Assembly: GCA_000002445.1 (NCBI GenBank)
Contig: CP000071.1
Location: forward strand, 1,408,001-1,472,000
Direction of reading: 5' to 3'
From: Trypanosoma brucei
Lineage: Eukaryota
Length of the DNA stretch: 64,000 bases
Position numbers and translations under genes: made by a program. Positions within the stretch are counted from its first letter, which is position 1. Every line of letters begins with the position of its first letter. Under the pieces are notes generated by a model. That model was not told where the DNA came from. It did no database searches and saw only the letters and a program-made list of their open reading frames with translations. Shown here piece after piece: positions 1-39,612 of this stretch.

Positions 1-3000
1 CCGCAAATGTGGGATCTGACATGAGATGCAACTCGCCCAGCGGGATCCCTTTCAAGGTGCGTCCCAGAAACGGGTAAGCTGCTGCAAGGGACTCCTCTTC
101 GGCCTTGCGTTCTTCAACAATCGCCCTCACTCGCTTGGCCAGTCCAGCCTCAGCCTCTCGAATAACCTCTGCATTTACTTCGTTAGGTCCCTTCGCTTTC
201 TCTTCATCGCGTCTCTTCATGAGTTCACAGAATTCGTCGTCATCCTCCAACGTCAAGTCCCGCGGAACCTCAGCCAGCAGCGAAGGGTCAACAAAGGAGT
301 ACAGTGAAGCATCGCGTGCAGCTGCTCGCTGCTCTGCTGATTGGAGCTTCAGAACGTCTCCTGCAATTTGGCCTGCTCGTCGGCAGAGTTGCTCATATAT
401 TTGCTTCTCGAGGGGTGATTCGGGCTTTCTACCATCGGGAACAAGTTCGTTGTACCGCGCCAGCAACTCCTGGAAGTACGGGTCATCCTCAAGGTACAAC
501 TCAGCCTGCGACACACCCAAAAACGTCTCCGGAAGAAAAGGGTACACAACAGCAGCAACGCTCCCCCTAGCGCCAGGGAGTCCACCAGCAAAACTTTCAC
601 CATCAGAACTAGTCCTTGCACCCTTTGCTGCACTTGTTCCATCTAACGCACCTGCACCTCCCACACTGCCAGACGCGGTCGGGTCACCACCAGCTGCACT
701 CTTCATGCTCAAGCTCATCTCACGTTCAAGCTGGCGCAGCGCGTCGGCGTTCTTGACGGGATCACGCATCAGTTCGTCATACCGAGCGCACTGCTGTTGG
801 AACACCGGGTCATGTAATAGCTTCTCCGACAACTCGAGACCGTCTTGTGAGGCAAGGAATGGACATTTATTAAGCAACGCGCGCCTAACCGACTCATTAA
901 GCGCCAGCTCATCAGCACGAGCACGCAACGCCTCCTCCAGCTCTGTCAGTCGCTCCGCATTTGCCTCAGCGTCCTCAAGCGCGGAGAGGTGCTCATTAAA
1001 CAATTTCTGATACCCATCATCTTTGGAAAGCGGTATGTCACTGAGGAGCACGCACTTACGATCTTCGTACAAAAGGAAGGGATTGCACGCACGCACATAC
1101 TCATTGGCGTCTTCACTCTCCTTCTCAGCCAGTCTTGCAAGACGAGCAAGGTCCTTAACCCGCTGCAACATCTCTTCCTCAGTCGCTACCGCATCTTTGC
1201 CACCGTCGCTGCTACTCTTCTGCTGCAACCAGCGCTGGCCCAACTGAGAAAACATTGCATCATCATTGATTGGAAGCTCACCAAGAGGAATACCCATTAC
1301 TCGTTTCGGAAGGAAGGGATACTGTTTATGGACCGCATCCGTTTTCGTAGCATTCTCCTCGGCCAATTGCGTCACGAGCGCCTTCATTTTCTCCTCCATA
1401 GCAGCAATCGCCTCTGCGTTGCCTGCCGGATCGCGGCGTAGCTCGTCCAGCTCATTCGACAGGTCACGGAACTCCTGTTGCTGAGCAGGTCGCACATCTG
1501 CGAGACACACACCACGCACAGGCTCTTCGGGCAAGAACGGGTAACGCTCACGGAGGTCCTCAGCACGGACTGCGGCACGGAGCCTAGAGGAACGGAGGTC
1601 ACTCACGATTTTGTCAGCAGCGTCACGCAATAATTTCTCCTGCTGAGCCCGGGCCGTCGGATCCATATTAGATGCATCCTGCGTGTAGCGAGATGCTAGC
1701 TCCGCAAATGTGGGATCTGACATGAGATGCAACTCGCCCAGCGGGATCCCTTTCAAGGTGCGTCCCAGAAACGGGTAAGCTGCTGCAAGGGACTCCTCTT
1801 CGGCCTTGCGTTCTTCAACAATCGCCCTCACTCGCTTGGCCAGTCCAGCCTCAGCCTCTCGAATAACCTCTGCATTTACTTCGTTAGGTCCCTTCGCTTT
1901 CTCTTCATCGCGTCTCTTCATGAGTTCACAGAATTCGTCGTCATCCTCCAACGTCAAGTCCCGCGGAACCTCAGCCAGCAGCGAAGGGTCAACAAAGGAG
2001 TACAGTGAAGCATCGCGTGCAGCTGCTCGCTGCTCTGCTGATTGGAGCTTCAGAACGTCTCCTGCAATTTGGCCTGCTCGTCGGCAGAGTTGCTCATATA
2101 TTTGCTTCTCGAGGGGTGATTCGGGCTTTCTACCATCGGGAACAAGTTCGTTGTACCGCGCCAGCAACTCCTGGAAGTACGGGTCATCCTCAAGGTACAA
2201 CTCAGCCTGCGACACACCCAAAAACGTCTCCGGAAGAAAAGGGTACACAACAGCAGCAACGCTCCCCCTAGCGCCAGGGAGTCCACCAGCAAAACTTTCA
2301 CCATCAGAACTAGTCCTTGCACCCTTTGCTGCACTTGTTCCATCTAATGCACCTGCACCTCCCACACTGCCAGACGCGGTCGGGTCACCACCAGCTGCAC
2401 TCTTCATGCTCAAGCTCATCTCACGTTCAAGCTGGCGCAGCGCGTCGGCGTTCTTGACGGGATCACGCATCAGTTCGTCATACCGAGCGCACTGCTGTTG
2501 GAACACCGGGTCATGTAATAGCTTCTCCGACAACTCGAGACCGTCTTGTGAGGCAAGGAATGGACATTTATTAAGCAACGCGCGCCTAACCGACTCATTA
2601 AGCGCCAGCTCATCAGCACGAGCACGCAACGCCTCCTCCAGCTCTGTCAGTCGCTCCGCATTTGCCTCAGCGTCCTCAAGCGCGGAGAGGTGCTCATTAA
2701 ACAATTTCTGATACCCATCATCTTTGGAAAGCGGTATGTCACTGAGGAGCACGCACTTACGATCTTCGTACAAAAGGAAGGGATTGCACGCACGCACATA
2801 CTCATTGGCGTCTTCACTCTCCTTCTCAGCCAGTCTTGCAAGACGAGCAAGGTCCTTAACCCGCTGCAACATCTCTTCCTCAGTCGCTACCGCATCTTTG
2901 CCACCGTCGCTGCTACTCTTCTGCTGCAACCAGCGCTGGCCCAACTGAGAAAACATTGCATCATCATTGATTGGAAGCTCACCAAGAGGAATACCCATTA

Positions 3001-3536
3001 CTCGTTTCGGAAGGAAGGGATACTGTTTATGGACCGCATCCGTTTTCGTAGCATTCTCCTCGGCCAATTGCGTCACGAGCGCCTTCATTTTCTCCTCCAT
3101 AGCAGCAATCGCCTCTGCGTTGCCTGCCGGATCGCGGCGTAGCTCGTCCAGCTCATTCGACAGGTCACGGAACTCCTGTTGCTGAGCAGGTCGCACATCT
3201 GCGAGACACACACCACGCACAGGCTCTTCGGGCAAGAACGGGTAACGCTCACGGAGGCCTTCAGCACGGACTGCGGCACGGAGCCTAGAGGAACGGAGGT
3301 CACTCACGATTTTGTCAGCAGCGTCACGCAATAATTTCTCCTGCTGAGCCCGGGCCGTCGGATCCATATTAGATGCATCCTGCGTGTAGCGAGATGCTAG
3401 CTCCGCAAATGTGGGATCTGACATGAGATGCAACTCGCCCAGCGGGATCCCTTTCAAGGTACGTCCCAGAAACGGGTAAGCTGCTGCAAGGGACTCCTCT
3501 TCGGCCTTGCGTTCTTCAACAATCGCCCTCACTCGC
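1..3536. repeat. Macro tandem repeat inside the giant CDS. The unit is 1701 bp (567 codons, in frame). About 2.08 near-identical copies are visible (1-1701, 1702-3402, partial 3403-3536) and the array probably continues left of the window.
   Basis: Plus-strand ORFs at 26..307 / 1727..2008 and 105..1010 / 1806..2711 are identical, giving an offset of 1701. Only isolated mismatches were seen, for example 631 versus 2341 C/T and 1557 versus 3257. Confidence 0.9.
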
Positions 3537-6500
3537 TTTGTTTTGTTAAGTTCTATTTGCTGCTTCTTTTCGTTGTCTGTTACTGTTCTTTGTTCTTCCT
3601 TCAGTAGCTGCTGTATTTCGTTGTCTTCGTATATGTTTAAGGATGCTATTTTTATACCCTTTACTGTCTTTTGTATATTCTGAAAATTTTTCATAAGTCT
3701 TCCTACCTTTCTTTCTTCTGCTTCGATCTCGCTGCGGAAGGCTTTGTGCAGCTGTGATTTTCTCTTCGCCATTCTTGTTTGAAGGATGCGCTGCAATTTG
3801 ATACCTGCGGGAGTACCTTCTTCCTTAATTCTTTGATATTCGCGATGGAGTTCCTGGTAATATTTATCATTCATTATTTCCTCCTCAATGTAAGTGTTTA
3901 TTTCGTCTTGAGAAAGTCCAGTATCATGAGTATCCTTTATTTCATCATCACTGACATCCGACGGTGTTGATGTCATTATCTCCTGCGTCGTTCTGGCCAG
4001 CTCAGCTTCAAGCCTCTGTAGCTTCTCAGCGTTTTTGTCTATATCGTCCATGAGTTCATCATGATCGCCAACAAGTTTTGCGACAAGTGGGTTGTGGAGC
4101 ATGTTGGGGTCGATGTTTCGCCCAAGCATCGGGTATGTTTTGCGCAGCTCATCTACTTCGCGCACCTTGGCTGCCCGACCCTTGCGTTCATTTTCAAGTA
4201 TGTCGCGCACGCTATTAAGGAGATCGGGATGAACTGCATCAGGCGATCCGTCGCCTGTCATTGCAAGGACTCCTTGGCTTTCTAGGAGACGAATGTCCTC
4301 TAGACTAAGTGGCTTCAGTTCGTGGAACATCTCCATTATCTTTTCAATCTTCTTTATCTCCTCCAGGGCAATTTCATCTGCTCTACATGCAAGTCGGAAT
4401 CGAACACTAGCGACGGAGTCTTCATCCAATTTGAATCGTTGCAGAAGAGATTTGTACTCAGCAAGAAGCTGGTTGAACAGGTTGTCCTCGCTCAAGCGAA
4501 TGTGACGCAAAGGAAAACACTTCCGCGTTGTGTAAATAAGAAAGGGGTTTCCGGAGAGTACAGCATCATCGGCATCGGCGAGCAGAACTTCACTTAAGTG
4601 TGCGCCAGACGCAAGTTGCACAACCCTTGACTGAAGCACAGTTTCTTTTTTCGTTGTGGTCTCCTTCTCAGAAGCGGCAAATACTTCATCATCTTTGATT
4701 GGAAGCTCACCAAGAGGAATACCCATTACTCGTTTCGGAAGGAAGGGATACTGTTTATGGACCGCATCCGTTTTCGTAGCATTCTCCTCGGCCAATTGCG
4801 TCACGAGCGCCTTCATTTTCTCCTCCATAGCAGCAATCGCCTCTGCGTTGCCTGCCGGATCGCGGCGTAGCTCGTCCAGCTCATTCGACAGGTCACGGAA
4901 CTCCTGTTGCTGAGCAGGTCGCACATCTGCGAGACACACACCACGCACAGGCTCTTCGGGCAAGAACGGGTAACGCTCACGGAGGTCTTCACTCTCGATG
5001 GCTTCACGCCATTGGCGCACATTGCTCTCACGAGCGATGGCAAGTGCGTGGTTTAGCATCTCCCTTACAAGCCGCTTTCGCCGAAGATCGTTGGAGGTAC
5101 CAAGTGAGTTGGGGAGCTTTGAATACTGCTCTGCTTTCTGCGCAAACTTTTGGTTTTCTTCCAAATGCATGGTTGACGTATCTATACCTTCCATCCTACT
5201 TGGAATAAAGGGATATTTTTGGTTGTGCTCTTTGATCTGCGTCGTGCGCCTCACGGCAAGCCAAGCCACACGGTCGTTGGCGCGCGCGTTGAGCTTGTCT
5301 ACTTCCGCTACGACGACTGGTTTCATTGCGGTAAGTTTCTCACGAGCTATCACAAGAGCCATGAACTCATTATCCCCTTCCACGTCAAGGGCATCCAGGG
5401 TGAATCCGAGGTGCCGACGGCTTACAAATGGGTATTTGGCCTCTGAACGCTGTCGCCTTCTGAAACGGTTTGCATTTACCTTCCGTACCCAAACATTCAT
5501 CTGGAGTACCCGCTCCTCCATCTGATGTGTAAGCCCCAGTGCCGTTGGTGAATCATCTGCGTTGTTCTTGAACTCGGCATTGCGGCGTTGGGATAAAACC
5601 ACGTAGTAATCATCACGCATGTTCGGCACGGTTTCCACTACAAAATTCTCTGTTGTGAAACTTTCAACGTCGTAGTTCAGCCTCTGCAGTTCATTATCGT
5701 CGTGGCGCCGTGCCGCAAGGTGATGCACCGCCACCGCCAGTTCTGATTGCAACTTGCTATCAGTATTCTTCTTCGCTAACTGATCCATCAGCGTTGCCGC
5801 CGCCGAGTCCTCATGCAACCGTAACATAGAAAGTCGTTGATGATAAGGCCTTTCCTCAAGAAAGGGAAACTGCTGATGTAACTCCTCGTCGTCCACCGCG
5901 AGGCACGTGCGCACGATGGAAGCCCGTTCCCACATGGCTTCAAGCTTCGCAGATATTAGGGCATGGATCCATTCTGCTTCGGCGTCCCCACGGGAAACAC
6001 AAAGGCGATGCACGCGAAGAAGGTCATGCAGGTGTGTATCTCCGGCAAGATCGGTAGCAGAAACGGAGTAGCGCTTTGATGACGAAAGCCAGGGCGACAA
6101 CTCCTTCCGCCACCGAAAGGCGTCGAGCTCGATCTCATCAACACGGCTGGCCAGCTGACCCTGAATTTGCACAAGGCCTGGTCCTAAAGATTGTGACATG
6201 GTGCATTTTCGTATCTGGTCAATTAGTGTTCTAACTTGTTCATCCTCCAACACGTAAATCCATGGTATCGGAAGCATGAGGTTGACGTACCCCCCGTGCG
6301 TATCGCTAAACTCCTGTTCCTGGCGGTCGACAAAAGCCCGTTCAAGAGCTGTATCCTTTGCCTTCTTGGCAACATACTCACATATAGCATACTCCAAGGC
6401 GTTCGTTTGTTTAGAATCATCGCTGCTGCGCAACTTATGCACAAGATCCATAAAAAATCCATCGTCTTCAAGTCTGAGGCTTGCCGTCCGCACCCCATGG

Positions 6501-9307
6501 ACCTCGGCGCGAAGGAAGGGGTACCGTTTTAGTATATCACCCTCTTGGATGGAACGATGTAGCTCCCACATCCGCTCCTTCATTGCCTGTTCCAGTTGCC
6601 TGCTCTCAGTTGTGTCCTTGCTTGCTCGCGCCCGCTGATGGGCAAGTTCAACGAACACCTCATCTTCCAGCAGCCGAACATCAACAAATGGAAAGCTGTC
6701 GACACGAGTTGCAAGGAAAGGATACCTCTGCAAGATCCCACGATATACCACTGGCCTGGAAGAGAGGTGCTGCTCGAGATAACGAAGGTTCTCTAGATAC
6801 GCCAAAAAATCAGGATCGTCTTTCGGTACACCGGCTTTGTCGAACGCAAGACCGGCCCTCTTGAGCGACTCTCCCGCATCACTTAAGCGATTAAGGTCAA
6901 TTTCAATCGCACCTTTGTTATTTTGTACGACAGCATACTCCCTACTCTGAACACCAAATAAGTCTGCCGCCTTATCTCCGGCCTCCCGCAGCAACGTCAT
7001 ACAGTGCTCTACATATTTTTCACGATCCCATGAGCGGTAAATGTGTGCACCATCAGTTAAAAGGGACGGCAAGTCGCGCGATTCAGTTGGTTTCTTCTTG
7101 CTAATTGTAATCGCGGTGAGAAGTACACGTATTGCGTCCTCGTACCAACCTTCAGACTCAAGTTGCAGACTTAAGTCCCACAGATAGTACATAAAATAGT
7201 CTGACGCCCAACCAATGGTACTGAGTTCGACAGAATGGCTCACGAGCTCCTTTGTGTTAACGGAGCAAGAGGGAAGAAGTTGTTTACACTGAAGAAGCCC
7301 CTTGTACGGCTGAAGATGCAGCCATGCACCGTGCTCACTCTTAAGATAGCCCGGAAGCTTTTCGATAGCACTATAGAAGTGCTTCGCAGCCTCCTCGACA
7401 CAGCTTCTGTAAGTGGCCAGCTCGTCAGACTGATACAACGTCGCCACGCGCAGCAGCCAGAAGCCATACTCAATGTGAAGGCGGCCTTGCGTTACAGGGC
7501 CCGTCAATTCTTCGAAACCGCGCATTGTGTCAGGAAACAAGCCCCGGCCCTCCGCAATGTAGTCTTTTTCCATAGTTGCAAAGCACACCTCGCACACGCT
7601 ACGGCGCGAATAGAGGGGTGACAGGCTCACAGGAGCACACAGTTCCATGTGCGCTTTTGCAGTTTCACGTACTAGGGCAAGTGCTTCATCATAATGCCCA
7701 TCCCAGCACGCCACCTTCCATCGGACCGGCAGACAAAAGGCATACCGATAACCATCTTGTGTAACGATTGTCCTGTATTTTTCACTTAGTGCGCGAACAT
7801 ACTGAGGATCTATCAATTTGGGTAATACACTGGCGTTGACGTGGGCGTGCCATCTCATTACTGTGTGATTTTTGGAAGTTTTTTCAATGGAAACTCCAAT
7901 AAGGGCACATATGCGCGCCACAATATCCGCCTTCCTCCCCATACGTATGTCTGTTAGGGACTTGATGAGATCCTCATCGGAATCTATTATGCCATATTTC
8001 TTGGCTACAACCTCCAAAAAGATACTGCGGAAATTATCCAGGTTTGTGAAGGCTGCCCCGATGTGTTTCGAGACGGTGCCGGCCAGTATATCGTCATCGT
8101 ACGCCACGCGTTTTCCTTGAACTTCCAAATAGAACTCCTGTTTCACCGACCGTGCAATCATTTCAATGGATATCAACTCCCTCACTCGTTGTGTCACATC
8201 AGGGGAATACCTCCCCACACCCTCAGTTTTACACACCACTTGCTTCAGGAGGCACATGTTGATGCCGATTGAGTGCAGCACATCGCACAGTTTCCTCAAG
8301 CGCTCGCCGTTTGAGCGAGACTCGCTGTCCACACAAGCGTGCACAATGCGGTCGAGCACTTCAGTGTTGTCAAGCAACGAAACTGTGTCCATATGACCAT
8401 CTGTCACATTGCCACAAAGCCTCAGCATCTCTTGGCGCTTCATGATTGTATCGTCAACAAACAACGGGGTTAGAGTTGAGTTGGAATTGGTTAGGTACAG
8501 GCGGCCATCCAATCCCTCATACACCTCAAGAGTGCCGTCGGGAAATGGGATATTGAGAGCATCCGCCATGTGGAGGATCTCCGCCTCGACCTCGCTGTCA
8601 TCTGTGGATTCAGCCCCATAAAGGCGGGTCGGGTTGGCCGACATAGGGACTAAGGCCTGCGCAAGCACAGGCATTCCGCGGTAGAAAATCATGCAGGAGA
8701 GCGGCACAGTCAACAGGCGGCTACGACTCTGCAGCACACCGCGGAGTGAGGCCACATAGTTCCTTCCCGAACGGCTGTCAGGTAGAACACGGAAGAAAAT
8801 GTTGTCCACGCGATAACACTGCAGAAATTTCGGGAGCTCCCGAGGCCCGTTATCGTCGAGCGTCACGATCTGCTTCGCCTTGCGGGTGGCCTCCTCCACG
8901 AACTCCTTCTCAATCCGGCGAAGCGCCTCCATCCGGCTCACAGCCTGGGAAATGGTGTTGTCCTCCGCTTCCCACGCAAACTGGAACTCTGCATTCCAAT
9001 TCCTAGCATACCGCGTGATGTCAGCACAAGACGCAAGAAATGGCTTCGGTGCCGTCTGCTGCATCGGAAACGCAGCTATTTTTCTGATGGAAAGTCTATG
9101 CCGGGACGCCTCCAGCATTGAAACGTGACGTTGTGCTGTACGCTGGGAACTAGTGCTTGTCAATCGCGAATAAGAGGATCGCACATCCTCGATTGGAACT
9201 CCCTGGTTTTCGGGGGTGGTAGGAAACATTACACCCGGCTTCCGGTCCCGTGCATTCGAATCAACTGATGGATTACGGCGCTGTTCATTTTGATTGCGCC
9301 GTCTCAT
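1..9307 (-). CDS. Giant repeat-rich protein, N-terminal ~3100 codons. The ORF is open to position 2 and continues beyond the left window edge. The N-terminal region is CLU/TIF31-like followed by TPR-like helical sequence. The rest is built from recurring ~100-aa YPFLP...GIPLGEL modules.
   Basis: Hand translation of the minus strand: the ATG is the reverse complement of 9305-9307 and an in-frame TAA sits just upstream. Reading is in frame (codon first bases at positions congruent to 1 mod 3), checked at 9307, around 5000 and at 2-190. No listed minus ORF of 60 aa or more shares this frame, which fits a stop-free ORF running off the edge. The N-terminus reads MRRRNQNEQRRNPSVDS...LEVYEGLDGRLYLTNS (CLU-central-domain-like). 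The YPFL(P)-x5-G[IV]PLGEL motif is repeated many times. Confidence 0.6.
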   Translation of the reverse strand, partial: MRRRNQNEQRRNPSVDSNARDRKPGVMFPTTPENQGVPIEDVRSSYSRLTSTSSQRTAQRHVSMLEASRHRLSIRKIAAFPMQQTAPKPFLASCADITRYARNWNAEFQFAWEAEDNTISQAVSRMEALRRIEKEFVEEATRKAKQIVTLDDNGPRELPKFLQCYRVDNIFFRVLPDSRSGRNYVASLRGVLQSRSRLLTVPLSCMIFYRGMPVLAQALVPMSANPTRLYGAESTDDSEVEAEILHMADALNIPFPDGTLEVYEGLDGRLYLTNSNSTLTPLFVDDTIMKRQEMLRLCGNVTDGHMDTVSLLDNTEVLDRIVHACVDSESRSNGERLRKLCDVLHSIGINMCLLKQVVCKTEGVGRYSPDVTQRVRELISIEMIARSVKQEFYLEVQGKRVAYDDDILAGTVSKHIGAAFTNLDNFRSIFLEVVAKKYGIIDSDEDLIKSLTDIRMGRKADIVARICALIGVSIEKTSKNHTVMRWHAHVNASVLPKLIDPQYVRALSEKYRTIVTQDGYRYAFCLPVRWKVACWDGHYDEALALVRETAKAHMELCAPVSLSPLYSRRSVCEVCFATMEKDYIAEGRGLFPDTMRGFEELTGPVTQGRLHIEYGFWLLRVATLYQSDELATYRSCVEEAAKHFYSAIEKLPGYLKSEHGAWLHLQPYKGLLQCKQLLPSCSVNTKELVSHSVELSTIGWASDYFMYYLWDLSLQLESEGWYEDAIRVLLTAITISKKKPTESRDLPSLLTDGAHIYRSWDREKYVEHCMTLLREAGDKAADLFGVQSREYAVVQNNKGAIEIDLNRLSDAGESLKRAGLAFDKAGVPKDDPDFLAYLENLRYLEQHLSSRPVVYRGILQRYPFLATRVDSFPFVDVRLLEDEVFVELAHQRARASKDTTESRQLEQAMKERMWELHRSIQEGDILKRYPFLRAEVHGVRTASLRLEDDGFFMDLVHKLRSSDDSKQTNALEYAICEYVAKKAKDTALERAFVDRQEQEFSDTHGGYVNLMLPIPWIYVLEDEQVRTLIDQIRKCTMSQSLGPGLVQIQGQLASRVDEIELDAFRWRKELSPWLSSSKRYSVSATDLAGDTHLHDLLRVHRLCVSRGDAEAEWIHALISAKLEAMWERASIVRTCLAVDDEELHQQFPFLEERPYHQRLSMLRLHEDSAAATLMDQLAKKNTDSKLQSELAVAVHHLAARRHDDNELQRLNYDVESFTTENFVVETVPNMRDDYYVVLSQRRNAEFKNNADDSPTALGLTHQMEERVLQMNVWVRKVNANRFRRRQRSEAKYPFVSRRHLGFTLDALDVEGDNEFMALVIAREKLTAMKPVVVAEVDKLNARANDRVAWLAVRRTTQIKEHNQKYPFIPSRMEGIDTSTMHLEENQKFAQKAEQYSKLPNSLGTSNDLRRKRLVREMLNHALAIARESNVRQWREAIESEDLRERYPFLPEEPVRGVCLADVRPAQQQEFRDLSNELDELRRDPAGNAEAIAAMEEKMKALVTQLAEENATKTDAVHKQYPFLPKRVMGIPLGELPIKDDEVFAASEKETTTKKETVLQSRVVQLASGAHLSEVLLADADDAVLSGNPFLIYTTRKCFPLRHIRLSEDNLFNQLLAEYKSLLQRFKLDEDSVASVRFRLACRADEIALEEIKKIEKIMEMFHELKPLSLEDIRLLESQGVLAMTGDGSPDAVHPDLLNSVRDILENERKGRAAKVREVDELRKTYPMLGRNIDPNMLHNPLVAKLVGDHDELMDDIDKNAEKLQRLEAELARTTQEIMTSTPSDVSDDEIKDTHDTGLSQDEINTYIEEEIMNDKYYQELHREYQRIKEEGTPAGIKLQRILQTRMAKRKSQLHKAFRSEIEAEERKVGRLMKNFQNIQKTVKGIKIASLNIYEDNEIQQLLKEEQRTVTDNEKKQQIELNKTKRVRAIVEERKAEEESLAAAYPFLGRTLKGIPLGELHLMSDPTFAELASRYTQDASNMDPTARAQQEKLLRDAADKIVSDLRSSRLRAAVRAEGLRERYPFLPEEPVRGVCLADVRPAQQQEFRDLSNELDELRRDPAGNAEAIAAMEEKMKALVTQLAEENATKTDAVHKQYPFLPKRVMGIPLGELPINDDAMFSQLGQRWLQQKSSSDGGKDAVATEEEMLQRVKDLARLARLAEKESEDANEYVRACNPFLLYEDRKCVLLSDIPLSKDDGYQKLFNEHLSALEDAEANAERLTELEEALRARADELALNESVRRALLNKCPFLASQDGLELSEKLLHDPVFQQQCARYDELMRDPVKNADALRQLEREMSLSMKSAAGGDPTASGSVGGAGALDGTSAAKGARTSSDGESFAGGLPGARGSVAAVVYPFLPETFLGVSQAELYLEDDPYFQELLARYNELVPDGRKPESPLEKQIYEQLCRRAGQIAGDVLKLQSAEQRAAARDASLYSFVDPSLLAEVPRDLTLEDDDEFCELMKRRDEEKAKGPNEVNAEVIREAEAGLAKRVRAIVEERKAEEESLAAAYPFLGRTLKGIPLGELHLMSDPTFAELASRYTQDASNMDPTARAQQEKLLRDAADKIVSDLRSSRLRAAVRAEDLRERYPFLPEEPVRGVCLADVRPAQQQEFRDLSNELDELRRDPAGNAEAIAAMEEKMKALVTQLAEENATKTDAVHKQYPFLPKRVMGIPLGELPINDDAMFSQLGQRWLQQKSSSDGGKDAVATEEEMLQRVKDLARLARLAEKESEDANEYVRACNPFLLYEDRKCVLLSDIPLSKDDGYQKLFNEHLSALEDAEANAERLTELEEALRARADELALNESVRRALLNKCPFLASQDGLELSEKLLHDPVFQQQCARYDELMRDPVKNADALRQLEREMSLSMKSAAGGDPTASGSVGGAGALDGTSAAKGARTSSDGESFAGGLPGARGSVAAVVYPFLPETFLGVSQAELYLEDDPYFQELLARYNELVPDGRKPESPLEKQIYEQLCRRAGQIAGDVLKLQSAEQRAAARDASLYSFVDPSLLAEVPRDLTLEDDDEFCELMKRRDEEKAKGPNEVNAEVIREAEAGLAKRVRAIVEERKAEEESLAAAYPFLGRTLKGIPLGELHLMSDPTFA
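4682..4983. repeat. Dispersed ~300-bp copy, identical to 1261-1562 of the 1701-bp unit, lying within a diverged part of the same giant CDS.
   Basis: Identical ORF-track peptides (MIGSSPRGIPITRFGRKGY... at 1266.. / 2967.. / 4656..). The offset of 3429 is divisible by 3, so the coding frame is kept. Confidence 0.85.
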
Positions 9308-10179
9308 TTCAACGAAACTGACAGCAAAACAGACACAAAAATGAGTACTAAGTTACCTGAACCTCCCGGTACTTTGGTTTTTTTTCTTTCTATTATCTAA
9401 AAACAAAGCCGAAGACCTGCCGGGCAGACGGGTGCGCGAAGAAAAAAAATGCCGCAACAACGAAGGATGTTTGCTTCAAAGGCTTCGCAAAAAAAAAAAA
9501 ACAAAGTTTCTAGTCTGCCTCCGAAGATGATAATGACAGCAAGTTAAATAAACAAAAAGAGGTAAACTTCAACATGTGAAATAATAACCCTCGTGTGGCG
9601 TTTCACCACCGTTGGGATTCGTAACATCGTGGGAGGAGGGTACGCAGAAGTGATCCCCTCATTGTCCCGCAAAGCACCTAACGCAGCGGCAAAAAGGAAG
9701 TGCTTCGCAGCCATCAATACGCCGTAGCACCACTGCTGCAGGGAAAAAATAACATTCTCCCCAACATACAGAGCCATACACATCATAAGTTTCCCCACCG
9801 ATACCCACCACCACCACCACCTCTAACTGAAGCACTTTGGTCAAATTCACAAAACGAACCGTTCCCACCTGCCAGTCCACCTCATTAACACACCGGCCCC
9901 ACTTCGCATTAATGACTAACGCTGATCACCCAACCCCCGGAACAGAGATAAGTGAACAAACCCGCGTGTGGCCGAGTGAGCATCGCGTACACACAAGAAT
10001 GGGCAACTAGTTGCTCCTGACACGGTAAGCAAAAAAAAAACTCTATAGTGAACAAGCGCATGAGCTATTCGTGGTAACATTTCCACACAGCCGGCTATCC
10101 AACCCCTCAACATACATTACCATCACCGTACCGCTATTATTTGTTTTCCTCCGAGCATCGCGCCACAACGTATGAACTG

Positions 10180-11031
10180 CTACAACCGAATTTGCATCAA
10201 GTCGTCATATTCTTCATCTCCATCGCGGGGACGTTTCTTCGTCTCGACCGCCTTCGTTATACTCTTTAGCAACTGCGCTTGCAGATCACCCCGTTGAATA
10301 ATTGACTGTAGTTGCTGATCTTCGCTGACACCCATCTTTACGTACGAAACGGCTCGTTCAAGAGGATTCGGGGCTTCCTGTTTCGCCTGCAGTTTGCGAA
10401 GCTCCTTCCACCCTCCACGCTTCTTTTTCACTTCTTCGCCGCGAACAAATACGTGTGGAACAGGAAGCGCCTGTGTGTCCGTAGAGCTCACCTTTCCTTC
10501 TGTCAGTAGCAGCTCGAAACTGTGCCGTAACTTCTCTAACTCCGCACCACCAAATGCACCATCTGGAGAACTGCCAGAGATATCAGTTTTCAGGGCAAGA
10601 CAGCACTTGCGGGCAAATACAGCGATCCCTTTCCTAGCGGCCTGCAGGTCATCAGCCCTCACGCACTCGTCACCAAAGAACTCCACAAACACGGGCGCCT
10701 CTGCAAGGTAACCGGCACGCAAGTGATGGCCGTTAGCTGAGGCTCCGTCCTCCTCCATGCCAATGTGCCGCAGTGCTGCGTCGGAAAGACGCGCCAACGC
10801 AGCAACACTACCCACCTTACGCATTAATTTATTTACTACAGCGTCGCCCACCAGCATGCACAGATTTGGTACAGATGTAGGACTGTTCTCTGCCATCTGC
10901 TTCTCGTTCGATCTACCTATGAATCCTTCCAACACCCCAACAGTGCTCAACGTTGCCTTCTGCGGGAGCGCCCATTTAAATGGAAAGGAAAGAGTAAGAT
11001 AAACAAAAGTTGGTGCAGGCGAATAGGACAT
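10180..11031 (-). CDS. Hypothetical protein (~284 aa from the ATG at 11031) with a possible degenerate PWWP/Tudor-like segment (GDAVVNKLMRK...FVEFFGDECV) and an acidic/basic C-terminus.
   Basis: The listed ORF 10180..11226 starts in sequence that translates a poly-A/CA tract (FFCVCVFFF), so I moved the start to the first plausible ATG (MSYSPAPTF...). Poly-pyrimidine on the minus strand immediately upstream (11060-11100) fits a splice-acceptor region. Confidence 0.5.
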   Translation of the reverse strand: MSYSPAPTFVYLTLSFPFKWALPQKATLSTVGVLEGFIGRSNEKQMAENSPTSVPNLCMLVGDAVVNKLMRKVGSVAALARLSDAALRHIGMEEDGASANGHHLRAGYLAEAPVFVEFFGDECVRADDLQAARKGIAVFARKCCLALKTDISGSSPDGAFGGAELEKLRHSFELLLTEGKVSSTDTQALPVPHVFVRGEEVKKKRGGWKELRKLQAKQEAPNPLERAVSYVKMGVSEDQQLQSIIQRGDLQAQLLKSITKAVETKKRPRDGDEEYDDLMQIRL

Positions 11032-11243: not shown

Positions 11244-12482
11244 TCACGTCGTAGCGGTGTCGCGGTGCCTTTTTTTTTTTATTCCACGCACCCCACACTC
11301 AGCCTTAAGTTGCTCCACAAGTTCATCACACTCTCCCTGAAGCCGCCGTTCACGCTCCTCCTCGCACCCCAATCGTCCATATGCCGCTGACGACAGTGGA
11401 AGCGCTGAGCGCACGTTTGCCGTCCACTTCACCGTCTGCGTGGGTGGACACTGCCCGACACGGACACAAGCAGATCCCCACGTACTCCAACCATCGCTAG
11501 CGCGGGAAAAAAGTGAATTGCCTTTCTCCTTAGTCTGCAACACCTCTTCCACTCGAATATGCAAACGAGAACACGAAACGGAAACCCCTTGTCTCGGATT
11601 TTGCTGCGATTGAACTAGCTGAGGTTTCTTCAACCGCCTAAAGTTGGAGGAAAGCCAAAAGTTTGCAGCATCGTGTCTCCATGTTGCGATCGCGCCATCG
11701 TCCAAGTTGCGATCCCGTGATTGAAAAATGGCGGTGAGACCGTTCTCGTCTACATGAAGAGCAGCAATGAACAGGTCGCTCGGTGACTCACTCGTGTGCC
11801 CTTCTCCACTGTCTTCCGTCTCAGCGCTGGCAGCAGCTTCCGTATTCCATGCGTAACGCCGCATCCAAAATGGTTCTTCCCGCTGCAACAACGGTTCAAG
11901 GGGGCGATCGTTATCATACAAATCCACACGTGCCAACTGTGTGCCGCCGACGTAACACATAGTTTCATCAGGCGCAAGGGCTAGGCAACGTACAGGGAAA
12001 CCAACGCGTACTTCACAAAGAAGTGTGCAAGACGAAGTATCGAAAATAATGATGTGCCCCCCAACGCTGCATGTCGCCAGCCACGAACCGGTTGAGAAGA
12101 AGGCCATGCACGTTACCGCTAGCGTATGTCCATGCAGGCGGACCGCCCGCCCGTTCGTATTTGTAATCATACTACTGATCGGCTGGACGGCGGGTGTTGC
12201 GTCGTGCCCGGCAGAGGCAACAAGATACGCCGAGGAAGCAGCTAGGCAGTGGACCGGACCGTAGTGTAGAGCGCGGGCGTACACGCAATCACAGGTAATA
12301 TTTTCAGAGTCGGAAGGTGTAGCAGAGCCAATAAAAGCGTCACCGTCTGTATATGCAAAGGCCAACACACTCCCTGCGTCAGTGCCCACCACGACAGTGC
12401 AATTGACTGTCAACAAAGCGGTAACATAGGCACCTTCGTATAGACTAGCACCAAAGGCGTCTCCTACACCTAGCGTTGTCAT
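11244..12482 (-). CDS. WD40-repeat protein (~412 aa).
   Basis: The listed start at 12485 is GTG; the ATG is at 12482. WD-like repeats are present (GHTLAVTCMAF...GHIIIFD, VRCLALAPDETMCYVGG). No specific family recognised. Confidence 0.6.
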   Translation of the reverse strand: MTTLGVGDAFGASLYEGAYVTALLTVNCTVVVGTDAGSVLAFAYTDGDAFIGSATPSDSENITCDCVYARALHYGPVHCLAASSAYLVASAGHDATPAVQPISSMITNTNGRAVRLHGHTLAVTCMAFFSTGSWLATCSVGGHIIIFDTSSCTLLCEVRVGFPVRCLALAPDETMCYVGGTQLARVDLYDNDRPLEPLLQREEPFWMRRYAWNTEAAASAETEDSGEGHTSESPSDLFIAALHVDENGLTAIFQSRDRNLDDGAIATWRHDAANFWLSSNFRRLKKPQLVQSQQNPRQGVSVSCSRLHIRVEEVLQTKEKGNSLFSRASDGWSTWGSACVRVGQCPPTQTVKWTANVRSALPLSSAAYGRLGCEEERERRLQGECDELVEQLKAECGVRGIKKKRHRDTATT

Positions 12483-12938
12483 CACTGCCGACCGGCCACA
12501 CTTTTCTTCCCCGTTCTCAATATTGTGATGAAAATAACGTTGGAAAGGATGTAGCAGAGGAAAAGGTTATACGCTAAAGAAATGTGAGGGACGTAAACGG
12601 AGAATAGTAAGGAATATACCAGGCAGAACAAGGCGACCAACCAACACGTCGCGTTACCTCGTGGGATTACCCTCTCCCCGGATGTTTAGTCGAGCACAAG
12701 CACCGCAGACGCTTTCCCTTTAGCACCGTTCACAACAAGAGAGGGCGTACCCGCTCCTCCGTCGCGCGTGTAAATATGCACAGTCTTAAGTAACGAAGAA
12801 AATGGAGAAAATGCGGACGATACTTTAATACTACTCAGTAAGCTCCACCACAGACGAAGGGAACGGCGTTTCACCCGCCCACCCACACGCACACACCTTG
12901 TTTCCGTTCAATCTTATTATTTAATCCCTTCCTTCTGT

Positions 12939-13772
12939 TCAATGTGCCTGCTCAGATGCCTGATGGCTCTTCATGTGGAGAAGCATATTACTCCCCCCTG
13001 GAAGGAAGGTTACGTTTCGCATTGGTATGAGCTTTGATGCTATGTCCACAGCCGCTTCAATTCTTCGCAGCTCCAACAGTCCCCCTCCCGAGCGTTGAAT
13101 GGCTTCCGAGATCAGGCGGGCAGACTCCGCCTCACCTTCGGCGCGAACAACAGCGGCACGCCTCTTTTGCTCATTCTCTAGCACAACGTAACGGAATCTC
13201 TCTGCCTCCTGCTGTGCAACCTGTTTCTGCTCTACAGCCACCATGAATTCCTTACCGAACTGAATATCCACAAGCGATAAGTCTTCCAGTACAAGGCCGA
13301 ATTGTGATACTTTGCTCTGCATCAGCTGGTATATGCGCGCGGACACGACGTCGCGCTTCTGAATCAGTTCCTCGGCCTTGTACTCGGCCACAACTGCTTT
13401 GAGAATTTCGTTGCTGATAGAAGGAAGAATACGTTCGTCATAATCCATGCCGAACTCACGGTATATCTGTGGCAACCGATCCGTCTGCGGACGGAAGAGT
13501 ACACGAAGACTTATGTTCACCATCTGAAGATCTTTTGTGCCGGTCATGGTCTTCAGCACACGAGGCCGAATGCGAATATTAAATACCTTGATTTCATCGA
13601 GCCCTAAGATACGGCACTGCAAACCCTCGCCATACACGGAGTCCTTCAGACCAGTGATCCTATTGTAGAGAATGGCAGCTTCACCAGGATATACGACAAA
13701 GCAGCAGCTGTAGAATCCAGCAGAGGCAGCTGTAACTCCAAGCATAAACCGCTGGACAAATCTGAAGCTCAT
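12939..13772 (-). CDS. PHB1: Prohibitin 1 (SPFH/band-7 family), 277 aa.
   Basis: Strong similarity to PHB1 across the protein: TGTKDLQMVNISLRVLFRP...DYDERILPSI...FGKEFMVAVEQKQVAQQEAERFRYVV...AEGEAESARLISEA. Start ATG confirmed. Confidence 0.9.
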   Translation of the reverse strand: MSFRFVQRFMLGVTAASAGFYSCCFVVYPGEAAILYNRITGLKDSVYGEGLQCRILGLDEIKVFNIRIRPRVLKTMTGTKDLQMVNISLRVLFRPQTDRLPQIYREFGMDYDERILPSISNEILKAVVAEYKAEELIQKRDVVSARIYQLMQSKVSQFGLVLEDLSLVDIQFGKEFMVAVEQKQVAQQEAERFRYVVLENEQKRRAAVVRAEGEAESARLISEAIQRSGGGLLELRRIEAAVDIASKLIPMRNVTFLPGGSNMLLHMKSHQASEQAH

Positions 13773-14339: not shown

Positions 14340-16208
14340 TCAAGTCAAGGTCCCCTTCCCAACTGTAGCCTTCCTGAAAGCATCTTTTACTTCAGCGTCA
14401 ACCTCTCCTCCGGGAGTCCCAAGCCACTCATGCAGTGTTGCGTCGTCCACGAGACCGTTAGCATGCAATGAGGAAATGATGTGCCCGGTAATCTGTGCCC
14501 TCCCAAGTTTCGTCATTGTTACCAACGACTGCACCACAGGCAATGAAAATATGGCATCCTCTTTCTTCTCAGGAGGAGGTATTTTGCCCCAGAACTCCAT
14601 CAAAGTGCTGAGAGACATTTCATCTGGGTCACGCAGCATACCATACGCCGTGCATAGAACTCGCACCGCGTCGTAGTACACATCCGTCTTCACATCGTCG
14701 CCAGAAGTGAACCTCAGCATGTTGGCGAAGCGTTCGCTAAACTTCGGTACATCCTCAAGTATTCCCTCTTCAATGGCTGAGGAAAGAGCGGCGGCAAACC
14801 CGTTAAACACCTGATCATCCTCCAAAAACAGGCCGATAACCATAAGTCTGCTGGCTTCACACTGAGCATCCTTCCTCGTCGTCATACAGGCCTCCCGCAC
14901 CACCTGGGCCGCCACTGCCGTGGGAAGGTCCATGTCAGGTATCGGTCGGGCCCCACAATCACGGAATTCCTCCTGCCAATTGGGCAGGCACCCGGTTCTG
15001 TAGCCACTTAGCCACTCCTGAAAAAGCGAACGTACACGTTCCTCAAAAGCCACAGACTCCGTAACGGTCATCTCGTGATCATCACACGCCACTATCTCCG
15101 ACTTCACAACATCTCGCCAAGCACGCGACTTCAATCCCTCTCGCGCATCTTTTCCCACCGTTGAAGCCGCTGCTCGCTGGCCCAGTGCAGAGTCACACGG
15201 ACCCGCACCCTTCCCTTTCTTCGATCCGCTACTGCTTGCGTTACTCGAGTTCGGCGTCGTTGAGGAACGCACAGCCCTGTCAGAGGCACGAGGTGGTTCT
15301 TTCTGTGTCGCAGCGGACGTTTTCGGCATTACAGTCTCGCGCGACTCCCAGTTACGATCACGCCGTAACTCTATGAGGTCCAACATTTTGAAGCATATGC
15401 GAGGAGGGTAAATCTTCTGGTCTTTTAGGCCCTCCAGAACCTTAAAATAGGCATCCAATTTCGGTCGGAGTTCAGCGATGGAGTCAAGGCTCTTGCCAAC
15501 AATAGTGAAGAGCACCGTGAGAAACTCGAGGTCTTCGCTCGCCGGGTAACCCCCTTTTTCAGGTTGCATAATGATGTTGATAATATCCATCATTGTACTG
15601 TGTGAAAGAACTTTGTGCAGGAAGAGCTCTCCAATGAATCGCATGTTTGCTACCTTGCGTCTCATGAAGGACGACCTTTGCTGCTCCACCTCCTCTTCAG
15701 AGAGTCCCTCCGATGAAGGAACATTCCGGCGGTTTTGAAACTCCGTCTGCGCGATCCCGACAACGGCATTGCGCAACTTTGACAGTCTCTTGCCCTCCTT
15801 CTGTTTCTGTACGACGTTGAGACTTACTTCATATTCCGCAAGCTTGTAGCACAGACCTGCATAGACGTTACTGTTTTCAGGCTCCCCTAGCGCTTTATTA
15901 AAGATAATCGAAACCGTCTTCTTAAGCATCTCATCTGAAGAAAATATGGTATTTGTCTGAAGTTGCGAGACTATCTCGTTGAAATTAGCCGCACTCAGCT
16001 TATTTAATGACCCGTAGACGAGGCGCTCGACCCACTCAGCTGTGGTTTTTGCCGATCCACGCGCGGCCCATGCGTTGGGTCCACGCACCAGTTTCGTCTG
16101 TGTTTGCTTCTTTCTGCGGCAAGCCTCCTCAAGTGAAAAGCCGGGGTACGGTGGCTCCGGGTAGAGCGACCGCAGTTCGAGAATTTGGTCGATGGTGTAG
16201 ACGTGCAT
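14340..16208 (-). CDS. EIF4G3: eIF4G-family translation initiation factor with a MIF4G domain, 622 aa. Size and neighbourhood fit trypanosomatid EIF4G3.
   Basis: MIF4G hallmarks are present (LNKLSAANFNEIVSQL...IFNKALGEPENSNVYAGLCYKL). The N-terminal YTIDQILEL resembles a Y-x4-L-phi eIF4E-binding motif. There is a Ser-rich linker. It sits next to PHB1 and U1-70K, as I recall for T. brucei chromosome 8. Confidence 0.7.
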   Translation of the reverse strand: MHVYTIDQILELRSLYPEPPYPGFSLEEACRRKKQTQTKLVRGPNAWAARGSAKTTAEWVERLVYGSLNKLSAANFNEIVSQLQTNTIFSSDEMLKKTVSIIFNKALGEPENSNVYAGLCYKLAEYEVSLNVVQKQKEGKRLSKLRNAVVGIAQTEFQNRRNVPSSEGLSEEEVEQQRSSFMRRKVANMRFIGELFLHKVLSHSTMMDIINIIMQPEKGGYPASEDLEFLTVLFTIVGKSLDSIAELRPKLDAYFKVLEGLKDQKIYPPRICFKMLDLIELRRDRNWESRETVMPKTSAATQKEPPRASDRAVRSSTTPNSSNASSSGSKKGKGAGPCDSALGQRAAASTVGKDAREGLKSRAWRDVVKSEIVACDDHEMTVTESVAFEERVRSLFQEWLSGYRTGCLPNWQEEFRDCGARPIPDMDLPTAVAAQVVREACMTTRKDAQCEASRLMVIGLFLEDDQVFNGFAAALSSAIEEGILEDVPKFSERFANMLRFTSGDDVKTDVYYDAVRVLCTAYGMLRDPDEMSLSTLMEFWGKIPPPEKKEDAIFSLPVVQSLVTMTKLGRAQITGHIISSLHANGLVDDATLHEWLGTPGGEVDAEVKDAFRKATVGKGTLT

Positions 16209-16809: not shown

Positions 16810-17646
16810 TCACGTAATACTCATGATATCATCCAGAAGGATGTCCACATCATCACGGTGTCTCAGTTCACCTCCCGATGGCTCCAGCTTAGTTGGAGCC
16901 TCCCTTGATCGATCTTGTTGCCGTTCGGTCTCATTGCGCTGGCGCTTGCCAATTGGCGTGTCTCCAGACGGCAAAACGGGGGAATTGATCGACGTTCCCT
17001 GCAATTTCACAGCTTTTGCAATGCGTTTCGGCAGAAACTCAGGTTCCTGCCGCCCTCGCTCCACGTCGATCACAACACTCCGACCGTGAAGCCGCCTCTT
17101 TCCACTACTTGCAACTGCTCTCTGCACATCCGCCTCCCGTCCAAACTGCACAAAGCCATACCGTCGGCTGTGACCATTACGGTCAAAAATTAGACGAGTG
17201 CTGACCACACGACCAAACTGCTCGCTGAAGATGCGGATGTCCTCCTCCACCGTTTTGGCGTGCAACCCCGACATCACAACTGTGCACCGCGGGTCCGAGC
17301 ATATATTCAAATCTGTATACGGATTGCGGCGATTCATCTCCGACTTCATCTGCTCCAACCAGGCCGAACGCTTAGGGTCAGATTTCTCTGCTGCTGCAAC
17401 GGGCCACGCATTCATTGACGACGACGAAACCACAGGCGGTCGCTCAGCGGCAACAAGCTCCAGTGCCCGCTTGTGAAATATATGGACCGGACTCGAAGCT
17501 ATTGGCTCACGACGTCGGCGGCACTGGGGGACAAACGGTGGGGGTGGCCTGCTCTGAAAAAAAGCCGCCTTCCATCGCATGTGCTCCTCGACCCTCCGCT
17601 GGGCGTTTTTTTTGTGGACCAGGTCTTCCTCACCAGGGGTCTGCAT
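16810..17646 (-). CDS. U1-70K: U1 snRNP 70K-like RRM protein, 278 aa.
   Basis: An RRM carries U1-70K-specific flanks: DPRCTVVMSGL (compare DPFKTLFVARL), RRYGFVQFG, and RSVVIDVERGRQ (compare RRVLVDVERGRT). The C-terminus is RD/RE-rich. Confidence 0.65.
   Translation of the reverse strand: MQTPGEEDLVHKKNAQRRVEEHMRWKAAFFQSRPPPPFVPQCRRRREPIASSPVHIFHKRALELVAAERPPVVSSSSMNAWPVAAAEKSDPKRSAWLEQMKSEMNRRNPYTDLNICSDPRCTVVMSGLHAKTVEEDIRIFSEQFGRVVSTRLIFDRNGHSRRYGFVQFGREADVQRAVASSGKRRLHGRSVVIDVERGRQEPEFLPKRIAKAVKLQGTSINSPVLPSGDTPIGKRQRNETERQQDRSREAPTKLEPSGGELRHRDDVDILLDDIMSIT

Positions 17647-39610: not shown

Positions 39611-39612
<2 letters not shown>

What the first reader, a model, noticed from the sequence alone, without database searches (positions are those of the whole stretch)
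1..9307. Giant (>3100 codon, incomplete) gene built from a recurring ~100-aa YPFLP/GIPLGEL module, missed entirely by the ORF track
The minus strand is open from the ATG at 9307 to the left window edge, so the protein is larger than 340 kDa and incomplete. Nearly the whole length is tiled by degenerate copies of one module, [YNFC]PFL(P)-x5-G[IV]xL-x-[ED]L-x3-[DN][DP]-x-F-x2-L-x3-Y-x-EL-x2-DP-x-N. Examples are RYPFLPEEPVRGVCLADV, QYPFLPKRVMGIPLGELPIND, KYPFIPSRMEGIDTSTMHLEEN, RYPFLRAEVHGVRTASLRLEDDGFF and KYPFVSRRHLGFTLDALDVEGDNEF. The N-terminal ~600 aa instead resemble a CLU/TIF31 central domain (LEVYEGLDGRLYLTNS) plus TPR-like helices. A CLU-like head fused to a huge cytoskeleton-antigen-like repeat body is not an architecture I can match to a described family. 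It could correspond to one of the classic repetitive trypanosome cytoskeletal antigens.
Basis: partly seen in the sequence, partly recalled or inferred. Interest (0 to 1): 0.7.

Follow-up and report, generated by a model that had tools for sequence, protein, structure and literature searches.

The report
Trypanosome flagellum-attachment protein FLAM3, truncated

Summary
The minus strand from ATG 9307 to base 1 is open for 3102 codons (351 kDa) and is cut by the window edge. The YPFLP module is real: 22 motif hits against 0.08 expected, and it matches Pfam DUF7623 (PF24610).

It has an N-terminal CLU domain (Pfam E 1e-13). It also has near-identical 1701-nt (567-aa) tandem repeats, exactly as published for T. 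brucei FLAM3 (Tb927.8.4780, about 4150 aa, 468 kDa). The neighbours (Nop, WD40, prohibitin/Band_7, MIF4G, RRM, kinesin) follow the published T. brucei chromosome 8 locus-tag order. FLAM3-type genes sit at the same place in T. cruzi, T. theileri and Leishmania.

Refinements:
- The head is about 860 aa, not 600: CLU, a borderline CLU-central match, and a predicted TPR-like solenoid.
- The modules recur every 73-107 aa, seven per 567-aa super-repeat.
- The same module, at a 68-aa period, builds calpain-type proteins with the architecture published for ClpGM6/H49.
- The ORF track missed the gene only because it omits ORFs that run off the window.

One side observation: the roughly 700-aa CLU-only paralogue found just upstream of FLAM3 in other trypanosomatids is absent here.

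The parts
1..9307 (-). 5' three quarters (3102 of about 4150 codons) of the FLAM3 gene. The start codon is at 9307-9305 and the 3' end lies beyond the left window edge.
   Evidence: No stop in 3102 codons. An in-frame stop lies 16 codons upstream of the ATG. The published ORF is about 12.45 kb (PMC4541047).
9002..9307 (-). N-terminal aa 1-102, predicted disordered and poorly conserved.
   Evidence: pLDDT 25-41 over aa 1-123. The paralogues and orthologues align only from about aa 88 onward.
8579..9001 (-). CLU (clustered mitochondria) domain, aa 103-243.
   Evidence: Pfam PF13236, E 1.1e-13, 51.9 bits against a cut-off of 24. Found in 13 of 13 head homologues.
8132..8293 (-). Borderline CLU-central (eIF3_p135) match, aa 339-392, inside a helical region at aa 305-480.
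   Evidence: Pfam PF12807, 22.1-22.4 bits against a cut-off of 22. Found in 7 of 13 homologues at E<=0.01. pLDDT 80-90.
6761..7807 (-). TPR-like alpha-solenoid, about aa 501-849. This is the end of the non-repeat head.
   Evidence: The AlphaFold model has pLDDT 80-92 and is all-helical here. The Foldseek PDB top hits are TPR domains such as LGN/Pins, with TMt 0.65-0.68. Pfam TPR families hit in a few homologues.
4352..6730 (-). Region of diverged single DUF7623 modules, aa 860-1652. There are 9 clear copies, with weak stretches at aa 990-1144 and 1209-1289.
   Evidence: Pfam DUF7623. My own HMM map and motif positions.
4679..4978 (-). Internal 300-nt copy (the module starting at aa 1444 and the start of the next), 99% identical to the corresponding part of the 1701-nt unit (2951-3250 and 1250-1549).
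   Evidence: the repeat finder family D1. Offset-1728 identity profile.
3539..4351 (-). Charged, E/K-rich stretch, aa 1653-1923. It holds only degenerate modules (YPML, NFQNI).
   Evidence: 37% charged residues over aa 1653-1941. Weak HMM hits at aa 1735, 1808 and 1878.
1..3538 (-). Tandem array of the 1701-nt (567-aa, seven-module) super-repeat. At least 2.08 copies are visible and the array is cut by the window edge.
   Evidence: 4 mismatches in 1837 nt at offset 1701. Families D1 and D2. Units 1 and 2 differ at 1 of 567 aa. Module starts are at aa 1942, 2020, 2094, 2173, 2246, 2353 and about 2436.

Best explanation
This is the T. brucei-group gene FLAM3 (flagellar member 3, Tb927.8.4780), truncated at its 3' end by the window edge.

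Shown in the literature. [quoted passage not shown] The kinesin KIN-E carries it into the flagellum by binding it through an importin-alpha-like domain. FLAM3 and the calpain-like repeat protein ClpGM6 depend on each other for stability, and FLAM3 colocalises and interacts with FAZ27. The amount of FLAM3 sets FAZ length. Its depletion shortens the FAZ. Procyclic cells then become epimastigote-like, and bloodstream forms suffer flagellum detachment and cytokinesis failure.

Inferred from the anatomy seen here. The roughly 860-aa head is a CLU-type unit: a CLU domain, a CLU-central helical region and a TPR-like solenoid. It probably serves as a protein-docking platform. The body is a long string of more than 27 DUF7623 modules. 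Each is predicted as a short YPFL-G-x-L turn followed by a helix of about 14 aa and a helix of about 30 aa. The body probably acts as an extended multivalent scaffold. Because ClpGM6 is built from the same module, the shared modules may mediate co-assembly of the two proteins along the flagellar FAZ domain.
For: Architecture. The CLU domain and the 1701-nt/567-aa near-identical tandem repeats match the published description: 'CLU domain at the N-terminus' and '~1.7 kb (567 amino acids) repeats ... similar to the 68 aa repeats in ClpGM6', about 2.7 copies, ORF about 12.45 kb (PMC4541047), 468 kDa (PMC4827413).

Synteny. The window's gene order is FLAM3, Nop, WD40, Band_7, MIF4G, RRM, kinesin. 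This fits the published locus tags Tb927.8.4780 FLAM3.4810 PHB1.4820 EIF4G3 and .4840 kinesin. The same neighbourhood precedes a CLU+DUF7623 giant gene in T. theileri, T. cruzi and Leishmania. The T. theileri gene is 71% identical over the head.

Module. It is Pfam DUF7623. The family has only 108 representatives among 1.84 billion proteins. These fall into calpain+DUF7623 proteins with a 68-aa period and CLU-head+DUF7623 proteins with a 73-81-aa period.

Function and partners come from the literature: PMC4541047, PMC5993322, PMC10551704 and PMC11555346.

Folds. Head model and TPR matches. Unit model with a repeated turn-helix-helix pattern, pLDDT 70-87 within modules.
Against: No T. brucei reference sequence could be reached with these tools. 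Residue-level identity to Tb927.8.4780 was therefore not tested. The best database hit to the head was only 52% identical. The identification rests on the exact repeat length, the domain architecture and synteny.

The subspecies or strain cannot be told (T. b. brucei, gambiense, evansi and so on). The 3' quarter of the gene, including the stop codon, is not in the window.

The roles proposed for the head and the modules are inference. No domain-dissection experiment on FLAM3 turned up in the papers read. The inter-module geometry of the model is unreliable (pTM 0.30).
Confidence: 0.93

Rival explanations
1. It is the GM6/ClpGM6 (or H49-type) repetitive calpain-like FAZ antigen, one of the 'classic cytoskeletal antigens'.
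For: The repeated module belongs to the same Pfam family (DUF7623) that fills calpain-like giant proteins. The literature says FLAM3 was first picked up in homology searches with the ClpGM6 repeat.
Against: No Peptidase_C2 or Calpain_III match appears anywhere in the 3102 aa, and the head is CLU-type. Module spacing is 73-107 aa with a 567-aa super-repeat. The calpain-type proteins instead show a tight 68-aa period (PMC3808341, PMC3214072). ClpGM6 is Tb927.11.1090, on another chromosome.
Confidence: 0.02
2. It is the trypanosome orthologue of canonical CLU/CLUH/TIF31, the cytosolic mitochondria-clustering protein, with a lineage-specific repeat expansion.
For: It has a CLU domain, a CLU-central match and a TPR-like solenoid in the same order as canonical CLU proteins.
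Against: No Clu_N match was found, and the head makes up only about 28% of the visible protein. The syntenic orthologues in other trypanosomatids are all CLU+DUF7623 giants. The published protein with exactly this architecture is flagellar, not mitochondrial. The head belongs to a kinetoplastid paralogue cluster that includes roughly 700-aa CLU-only genes next door in other species.
Confidence: 0.02
3. The gene is real, but the near-identical 1701-nt copies are partly an assembly artefact (collapsed or mis-expanded repeats). The copy number, and hence the protein size, would then be wrong in this sequence.
For: The copies differ at only 4 of 1837 nt. Such arrays are commonly mis-assembled. Orthologue gene models are visibly broken in other assemblies: T. 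theileri is split into 2045 aa plus a separate DUF7623 ORF, and many hits are 'partial'.
Against: The frame is intact across both junctions. The four mismatches show that the copies are distinct. The visible 2.08+ copies fit the published figure of about 2.7 copies. This rival concerns copy number only, not what the gene is.
Confidence: 0.15

Closest known systems
FLAM3 (flagellar member 3, Tb927.8.4780) of Trypanosoma brucei (Rotureau et al. 2014; Sunter et al. 2015, PMC4541047)
   Same: N-terminal CLU domain. A 567-aa (1.7-kb) tandem repeat. Repeats related to the ClpGM6 repeat. A giant size consistent with about 4150 aa and 468 kDa. A chromosome 8 neighbourhood that follows the locus-tag order.
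   Different: Nothing detected. The window holds only about 75% of the gene, and identity to the reference sequence could not be computed here.
ClpGM6 / GM6 antigen (Tb927.11.1090) and T. cruzi H49 calpain-like FAZ proteins
   Same: Built from the same DUF7623 module, according to the literature and to the calpain-type relatives examined here. [quoted passage not shown] ClpGM6 is a functional partner of FLAM3.
   Different: They have calpain (Peptidase_C2 and Calpain_III) domains instead of a CLU head. Their repeat has a tight 68-aa period with many near-identical copies (about 60 in T. b. brucei). Here the modules are diverged, spaced 73-107 aa and organised in a 567-aa super-repeat.
Canonical CLU / CLUH / TIF31 (clustered mitochondria) proteins
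   Same: The order of elements is CLU domain, CLU-central helical region, then TPR-like solenoid.
   Different: No Clu_N was detected. The head is fused to more than 2200 aa of DUF7623 modules. The location and function are flagellar cytoskeletal rather than cytosolic and mitochondria-related.
Roughly 700-aa CLU-only paralogues of trypanosomatids (for example T. theileri TM35_000101060 and T. cruzi BCY84_16029)
   Same: They align with aa 88-781 of the head at 34-46% identity. In other species they lie directly upstream of FLAM3.
   Different: They carry no DUF7623 modules. No copy is present in this window.

Membership tests
FLAM3 (Tb927.8.4780 orthogroup) | N-terminal CLU domain | tested here: met
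   Pfam PF13236 at aa 103-243, E 1.1e-13, 51.9 bits against a cut-off of 24.
FLAM3 (Tb927.8.4780 orthogroup) | Two to three tandem copies of a 567-aa (about 1.7-kb) repeat towards the C-terminus | tested here: met
   The period is 1701 nt. Window 1-1837 against 1702-3538 shows 4 mismatches. At least 2.08 copies are visible before the window edge. The published figure is about 2.7 x 567 aa.
FLAM3 (Tb927.8.4780 orthogroup) | Repeats related to the 68-aa ClpGM6 repeat | tested here: met
   A profile of the window's modules retrieves calpain+DUF7623 proteins with a 68-aa period. No ClpGM6 sequence itself was available.
FLAM3 (Tb927.8.4780 orthogroup) | Genomic position on T. brucei chromosome 8 next to Tb927.8.4790-4840 | tested here: met
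   Pfam on the neighbours gives Nop, WD40, Band_7, MIF4G, RRM and kinesin. The literature gives .4810 = PHB1.4820 = EIF4G3 and .4840 = kinesin.
FLAM3 (Tb927.8.4780 orthogroup) | Syntenic CLU+DUF7623 orthologues in other trypanosomatids | tested here: met
   T. theileri L001 (71% identity over the head), T. cruzi L003 (5565 aa) and Leishmania L004 (2710 aa). All lie downstream of Nop, though not directly: one or two CLU-related paralogues sit between Nop and FLAM3 in those species.
FLAM3 (Tb927.8.4780 orthogroup) | Near-identity to the reference protein; full length about 4150 aa | not testable with these tools
   No T. brucei sequence was returned by any database (best hit 52% identical). The 3' end lies outside the window.
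FLAM3 (Tb927.8.4780 orthogroup) | Localisation to the flagellar FAZ domain and flagella connector; FAZ-shortening RNAi phenotype | not testable with these tools
   Experimental. Reported in PMC4541047, PMC5993322 and PMC10551704.
Pfam DUF7623 (PF24610) | Score above the gathering threshold of the curated profile | tested here: met
   36.2, 150.5 and 375.2 bits against a cut-off of 27, with 23 stretches.
ClpGM6 / H49 calpain-like repeat proteins | Calpain (Peptidase_C2 and/or domain III) domains flanking the repeats | tested here: not met
   No calpain family appears among the Pfam hits of the 3102 aa at E<=1. The missing C-terminal quarter was not seen.
ClpGM6 / H49 calpain-like repeat proteins | Tight 68-aa tandem period | tested here: not met
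   Spacing is 67-107 aa with a median of 78. The calpain-type relatives show 68.
Canonical CLU/CLUH/TIF31 | Clu_N, CLU, CLU-central and TPR elements in a soluble protein of about 1300 aa without other repeats | tested here: inconclusive
   CLU is met, CLU-central is borderline, and TPR is met at fold level only. Clu_N was not found. A DUF7623 body of more than 2200 aa is present. The gene reads as a paralogue, not the orthologue.

The most novel reading that the evidence does not exclude
The gene itself is known. The least ordinary reading left open concerns its surroundings. In T. cruzi, T. theileri, Leishmania and one unnamed trypanosomatid, a roughly 700-aa CLU-only copy of the FLAM3 head lies between Nop and FLAM3. 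In three of the four there is also a 1.7-1.9-kaa CLU-related gene. In this window FLAM3 follows Nop after 872 nt, and neither paralogue is present anywhere in the 64 kb. If the T. brucei lineage has lost these genes altogether rather than moved them, FLAM3 would be its only member of this CLU-head cluster. That could bear on how FAZ length and morphology are regulated differently in African trypanosomes.
Probability: 0.3. Interest if true: 0.3.

Novelty: already known. Interest (0 to 1): 0.1.

Why it matters
It matters little as a discovery. FLAM3 has been studied since 2014 as a determinant of flagellum attachment zone length and of the trypomastigote/epimastigote shape switch.

The check is useful in three ways:
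- It shows that a giant gene was invisible to the ORF track purely because it runs off the window.
- It adds modest detail not found in the papers read: a CLU-plus-TPR-like head of about 860 aa, seven modules per 567-aa unit, and a predicted turn-helix-helix module.

Tried and rejected
- Word-indexed homologue searches were weak. With the head, the best hit was 52% identical, and no FLAM3 orthologue was returned for T. theileri, T. cruzi or Leishmania, although they exist on contigs fetched later. The 567-aa unit gave 5 unnamed partial hits. The module alignment gave nothing.
- A PDB sequence search with the head profile gave no hit.
- The afdb50 fold library was not available.
- I looked for printed GM6/H49 repeat sequences, for FLAM3 primers or peptides, and for literal peptide strings. 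This would have allowed a residue-level check against T. brucei. None was found in PMC3808341, PMC3214072, the supplements of PMC11555346 and PMC10551704, or a full-text search.
- Tandem Repeats Finder cannot see the 1701-nt period because its longest period is 500. It reported only a trivial 23-nt repeat.
- Rejected readings: a calpain-type GM6 antigen (no calpain domain); the canonical CLU orthologue (synteny and DUF7623 body); low-complexity over-reading (shuffle test and independent Pfam profile); and the plus-strand ORFs 105-1010, 989-1441, 1806-2711 and 2690-3142 as genes. Those four are antisense shadows that recur with the 1701-nt unit.
Full report
**1. The observation**

Translating window 1-9307 on the minus strand gives 3102 codons without a stop (recounted). 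The ATG at 9307 is the first one after an in-frame stop 16 codons upstream. The 3' end runs off the left edge of the window. The visible polypeptide weighs 351 kDa, and a stop-free run of this length has a chance probability of about 1e-65.

The ORF track did not list the gene because the ORF listing omits ORFs that run off either end of the source. In this region it lists only antisense shadow ORFs that recur with the repeat unit.

**2. The module is real**

The core motif [YNFC]PF[LIV] occurs 22 times, all at aa 862 or later. Composition-preserving shuffles give 0.08. With near-identical copies counted once, the figures are 15 against 0.06.

Independently, the curated Pfam profile DUF7623 (PF24610, 64 positions) matches 2, 7 and 14 stretches in the three thirds of the protein. 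The scores are 36, 150 and 375 bits against a cut-off of 27.

An HMM built from the window's own copies maps clear modules from aa 860 to the window edge. Only weak ones fall in aa 990-1144, 1209-1289 and 1653-1941. Spacing is 67-107 aa with a median of 78, not about 100.

**3. The higher-order repeat**

Window 1-1837 equals 1702-3538 except at four positions, which is a 1701-nt (567-aa) tandem unit. The two complete protein units differ at one residue.

Each unit holds seven modules, starting at aa 1942, 2020, 2094, 2173, 2246, 2353 and about 2436. A further 300-nt piece at 4679-4978 is 99% identical to the matching part of the unit.

**4. The head**

- Pfam finds CLU at aa 103-243 (E 1.1e-13, 51.9 bits against a cut-off of 24).
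- It finds a borderline CLU-central/eIF3_p135 match at aa 339-392 (22.1 bits against 22).
- Across 13 head homologues, CLU is found in all, eIF3_p135 in seven and TPR families in a few.

An AlphaFold model of aa 1-870, built on a 13-sequence alignment, has mean pLDDT 66.6 and pTM 0.51. It is confident (pLDDT 80-92) over the helical regions at aa 310-480 and 520-850, and disordered over aa 1-123.

Its best PDB fold matches are TPR domains: LGN/Pins with TM 0.65-0.68 on the target over about 350 columns, plus APC/C subunits and OGT.

**5. What it is**

The literature describes exactly this architecture. [quoted passage not shown] It has about 2.7 copies (PMC4541047), an ORF of about 12.45 kb and a mass of 468 kDa (PMC4827413). 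The window therefore holds about 75% of the gene.

The neighbours agree. Going upstream on the minus strand, Pfam gives Nop (10180-10896), WD40 (11244-12485), Band_7 (12939-13772), MIF4G (14340-16208), RRM (16810-17646) and kinesin (18400-21465). Published locus tags are Tb927.8.4810 = prohibitin 1.4820 = EIF4G3 and .4840 = a kinesin.

A giant CLU+DUF7623 gene follows the same neighbours in three other species:
- T. theileri, with a head 71% identical over 863 aa
- T. cruzi, 5565 aa
- Leishmania, 2710 aa

I could not compute identity to the T. brucei reference, because no T. brucei protein was returned by any database. That is the one membership feature left untested.

**6. The module family**

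A full HMMER scan of 1.84 billion representative proteins with the module profile finds only 108 proteins at E<=1e-3. Those examined fall into two architectures.
- Calpain (Peptidase_C2, Calpain_III) plus DUF7623 arrays with a 68-aa period: P0026, P0030, P0046 and P0062. This corresponds to ClpGM6/GM6 and T. cruzi H49 as described in PMC3808341 and PMC3214072.
- A CLU-type head plus DUF7623 with a 73-81-aa period: P0001, P0027, P0040, P0067 and P0085. This is the FLAM3 type.

A 2026 survey also notes that DUF7623 is largely trypanosomatid-specific and associated with calpains (PMC13309793).

**7. How it works**

Shown in the literature:
- It is a cargo of kinesin KIN-E, which binds it through an importin-alpha-like domain (PMC5993322; PMC10551704).
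- FLAM3 and ClpGM6 depend on each other for stability and localisation. FLAM3 also colocalises and interacts with FAZ27.
- Knock-down shortens the FAZ. Procyclic forms become epimastigote-like, and bloodstream forms show detachment and cytokinesis failure.

Inferred here. The CLU/TPR-like head probably acts as a docking platform. The module string probably acts as an extended multivalent scaffold.

A model of one 567-aa unit has pLDDT 69.6 and pTM 0.30. It predicts each module as a short turn at the YPFL-G-x-L motif followed by helices of about 14 and 30 residues. Confidence is fair within modules (70-87), and there is no reliable inter-module packing. Because ClpGM6 is built from the same module, co-assembly through the modules is plausible but untested.

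**8. Rivals**

- A calpain-type GM6 antigen is excluded by the absence of any calpain domain and by the different periodicity.
- The canonical CLU orthologue is excluded by synteny, the DUF7623 body and the published flagellar location.
- Assembly error could affect the copy number of the 1701-nt unit, but not the identity of the gene.

**9. Side observation**

In the other species, CLU-related genes lie between Nop and FLAM3. T. cruzi has only a 706-aa CLU-only gene there. T. theileri has a 1714-aa gene and a 704-aa gene, and Leishmania has a 1780-aa gene and a 690-aa gene. The Logan contig, which does not reach Nop, carries a partial >1560-aa gene and a 706-aa gene upstream of FLAM3.

The roughly 700-aa protein is a repeat-less paralogue of the FLAM3 head, 34-46% identical. 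In the window Nop ends at 10180 and FLAM3 starts at 9307. tblastn with both T. theileri paralogues finds only the FLAM3 head in the 64 kb. Whether they are lost or moved in T. brucei cannot be decided from one window.

**10. Verdict**

The object is an already known gene, so novelty is 'already known' and interest is low.

Noticed in passing
window 9308-10179 (Nop-FLAM3 intergenic region); compare L001 4515-12115, L003 10001-12121, L004 2384-12073 and L002 1-8348: Other trypanosomatids carry a roughly 700-aa CLU-only paralogue of the FLAM3 head directly upstream of FLAM3. In three of four loci there is also a 1.7-1.9-kaa CLU-related gene. In this window Nop is followed by FLAM3 after 872 nt, and neither paralogue is found anywhere in the 64 kb.
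   Followed up: partly
L001 4515-9659 (T. theileri, 1714 aa): This upstream gene matches the FLAM3 head at about 24% identity in two separate places (aa 44-534 and 912-1109). It looks like an internally duplicated CLU-type protein. Pfam hits to it are only faint (eIF3_p135, TPR_12).
   Followed up: no
window about 35230-39614: All large ORFs to the left are on the minus strand and all to the right are on the plus strand. GC skew changes sign here. This looks like a divergent strand-switch region between two polycistronic transcription units, as is typical of trypanosomatids.
   Followed up: no
window 105-1010, 989-1441, 1806-2711, 2690-3142 (+ strand): Long antisense ORFs of 301 and 150 aa recur at the 1701-nt spacing inside the FLAM3 repeat. 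They are the only ORFs the ORF track lists there, and they are shadows of the repeat rather than genes.
   Followed up: partly
window 4679-4978 against 2951-3250 and 1250-1549: A 300-nt piece of the otherwise diverged upstream module region is 99% identical to the matching part of the 1701-nt unit. This suggests recent gene conversion or partial duplication between the array and its flank.
   Followed up: no
window 55533-59903 (+), with 57514-59298 and 57617-59233 (-): A 1456-aa plus-strand ORF carries antisense ORFs of 594 and 538 aa. This hints at another compositionally biased or repetitive gene.
   Followed up: no
database behaviour: The word-indexed protein search returned the 44%-identical CLU-only paralogues. 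It did not return the 71%-identical T. theileri FLAM3 or the T. cruzi and Leishmania FLAM3 proteins, which are called genes on the same contigs. No T. brucei protein was returned at all. The lack of a close hit there is therefore not evidence of novelty.
   Followed up: partly
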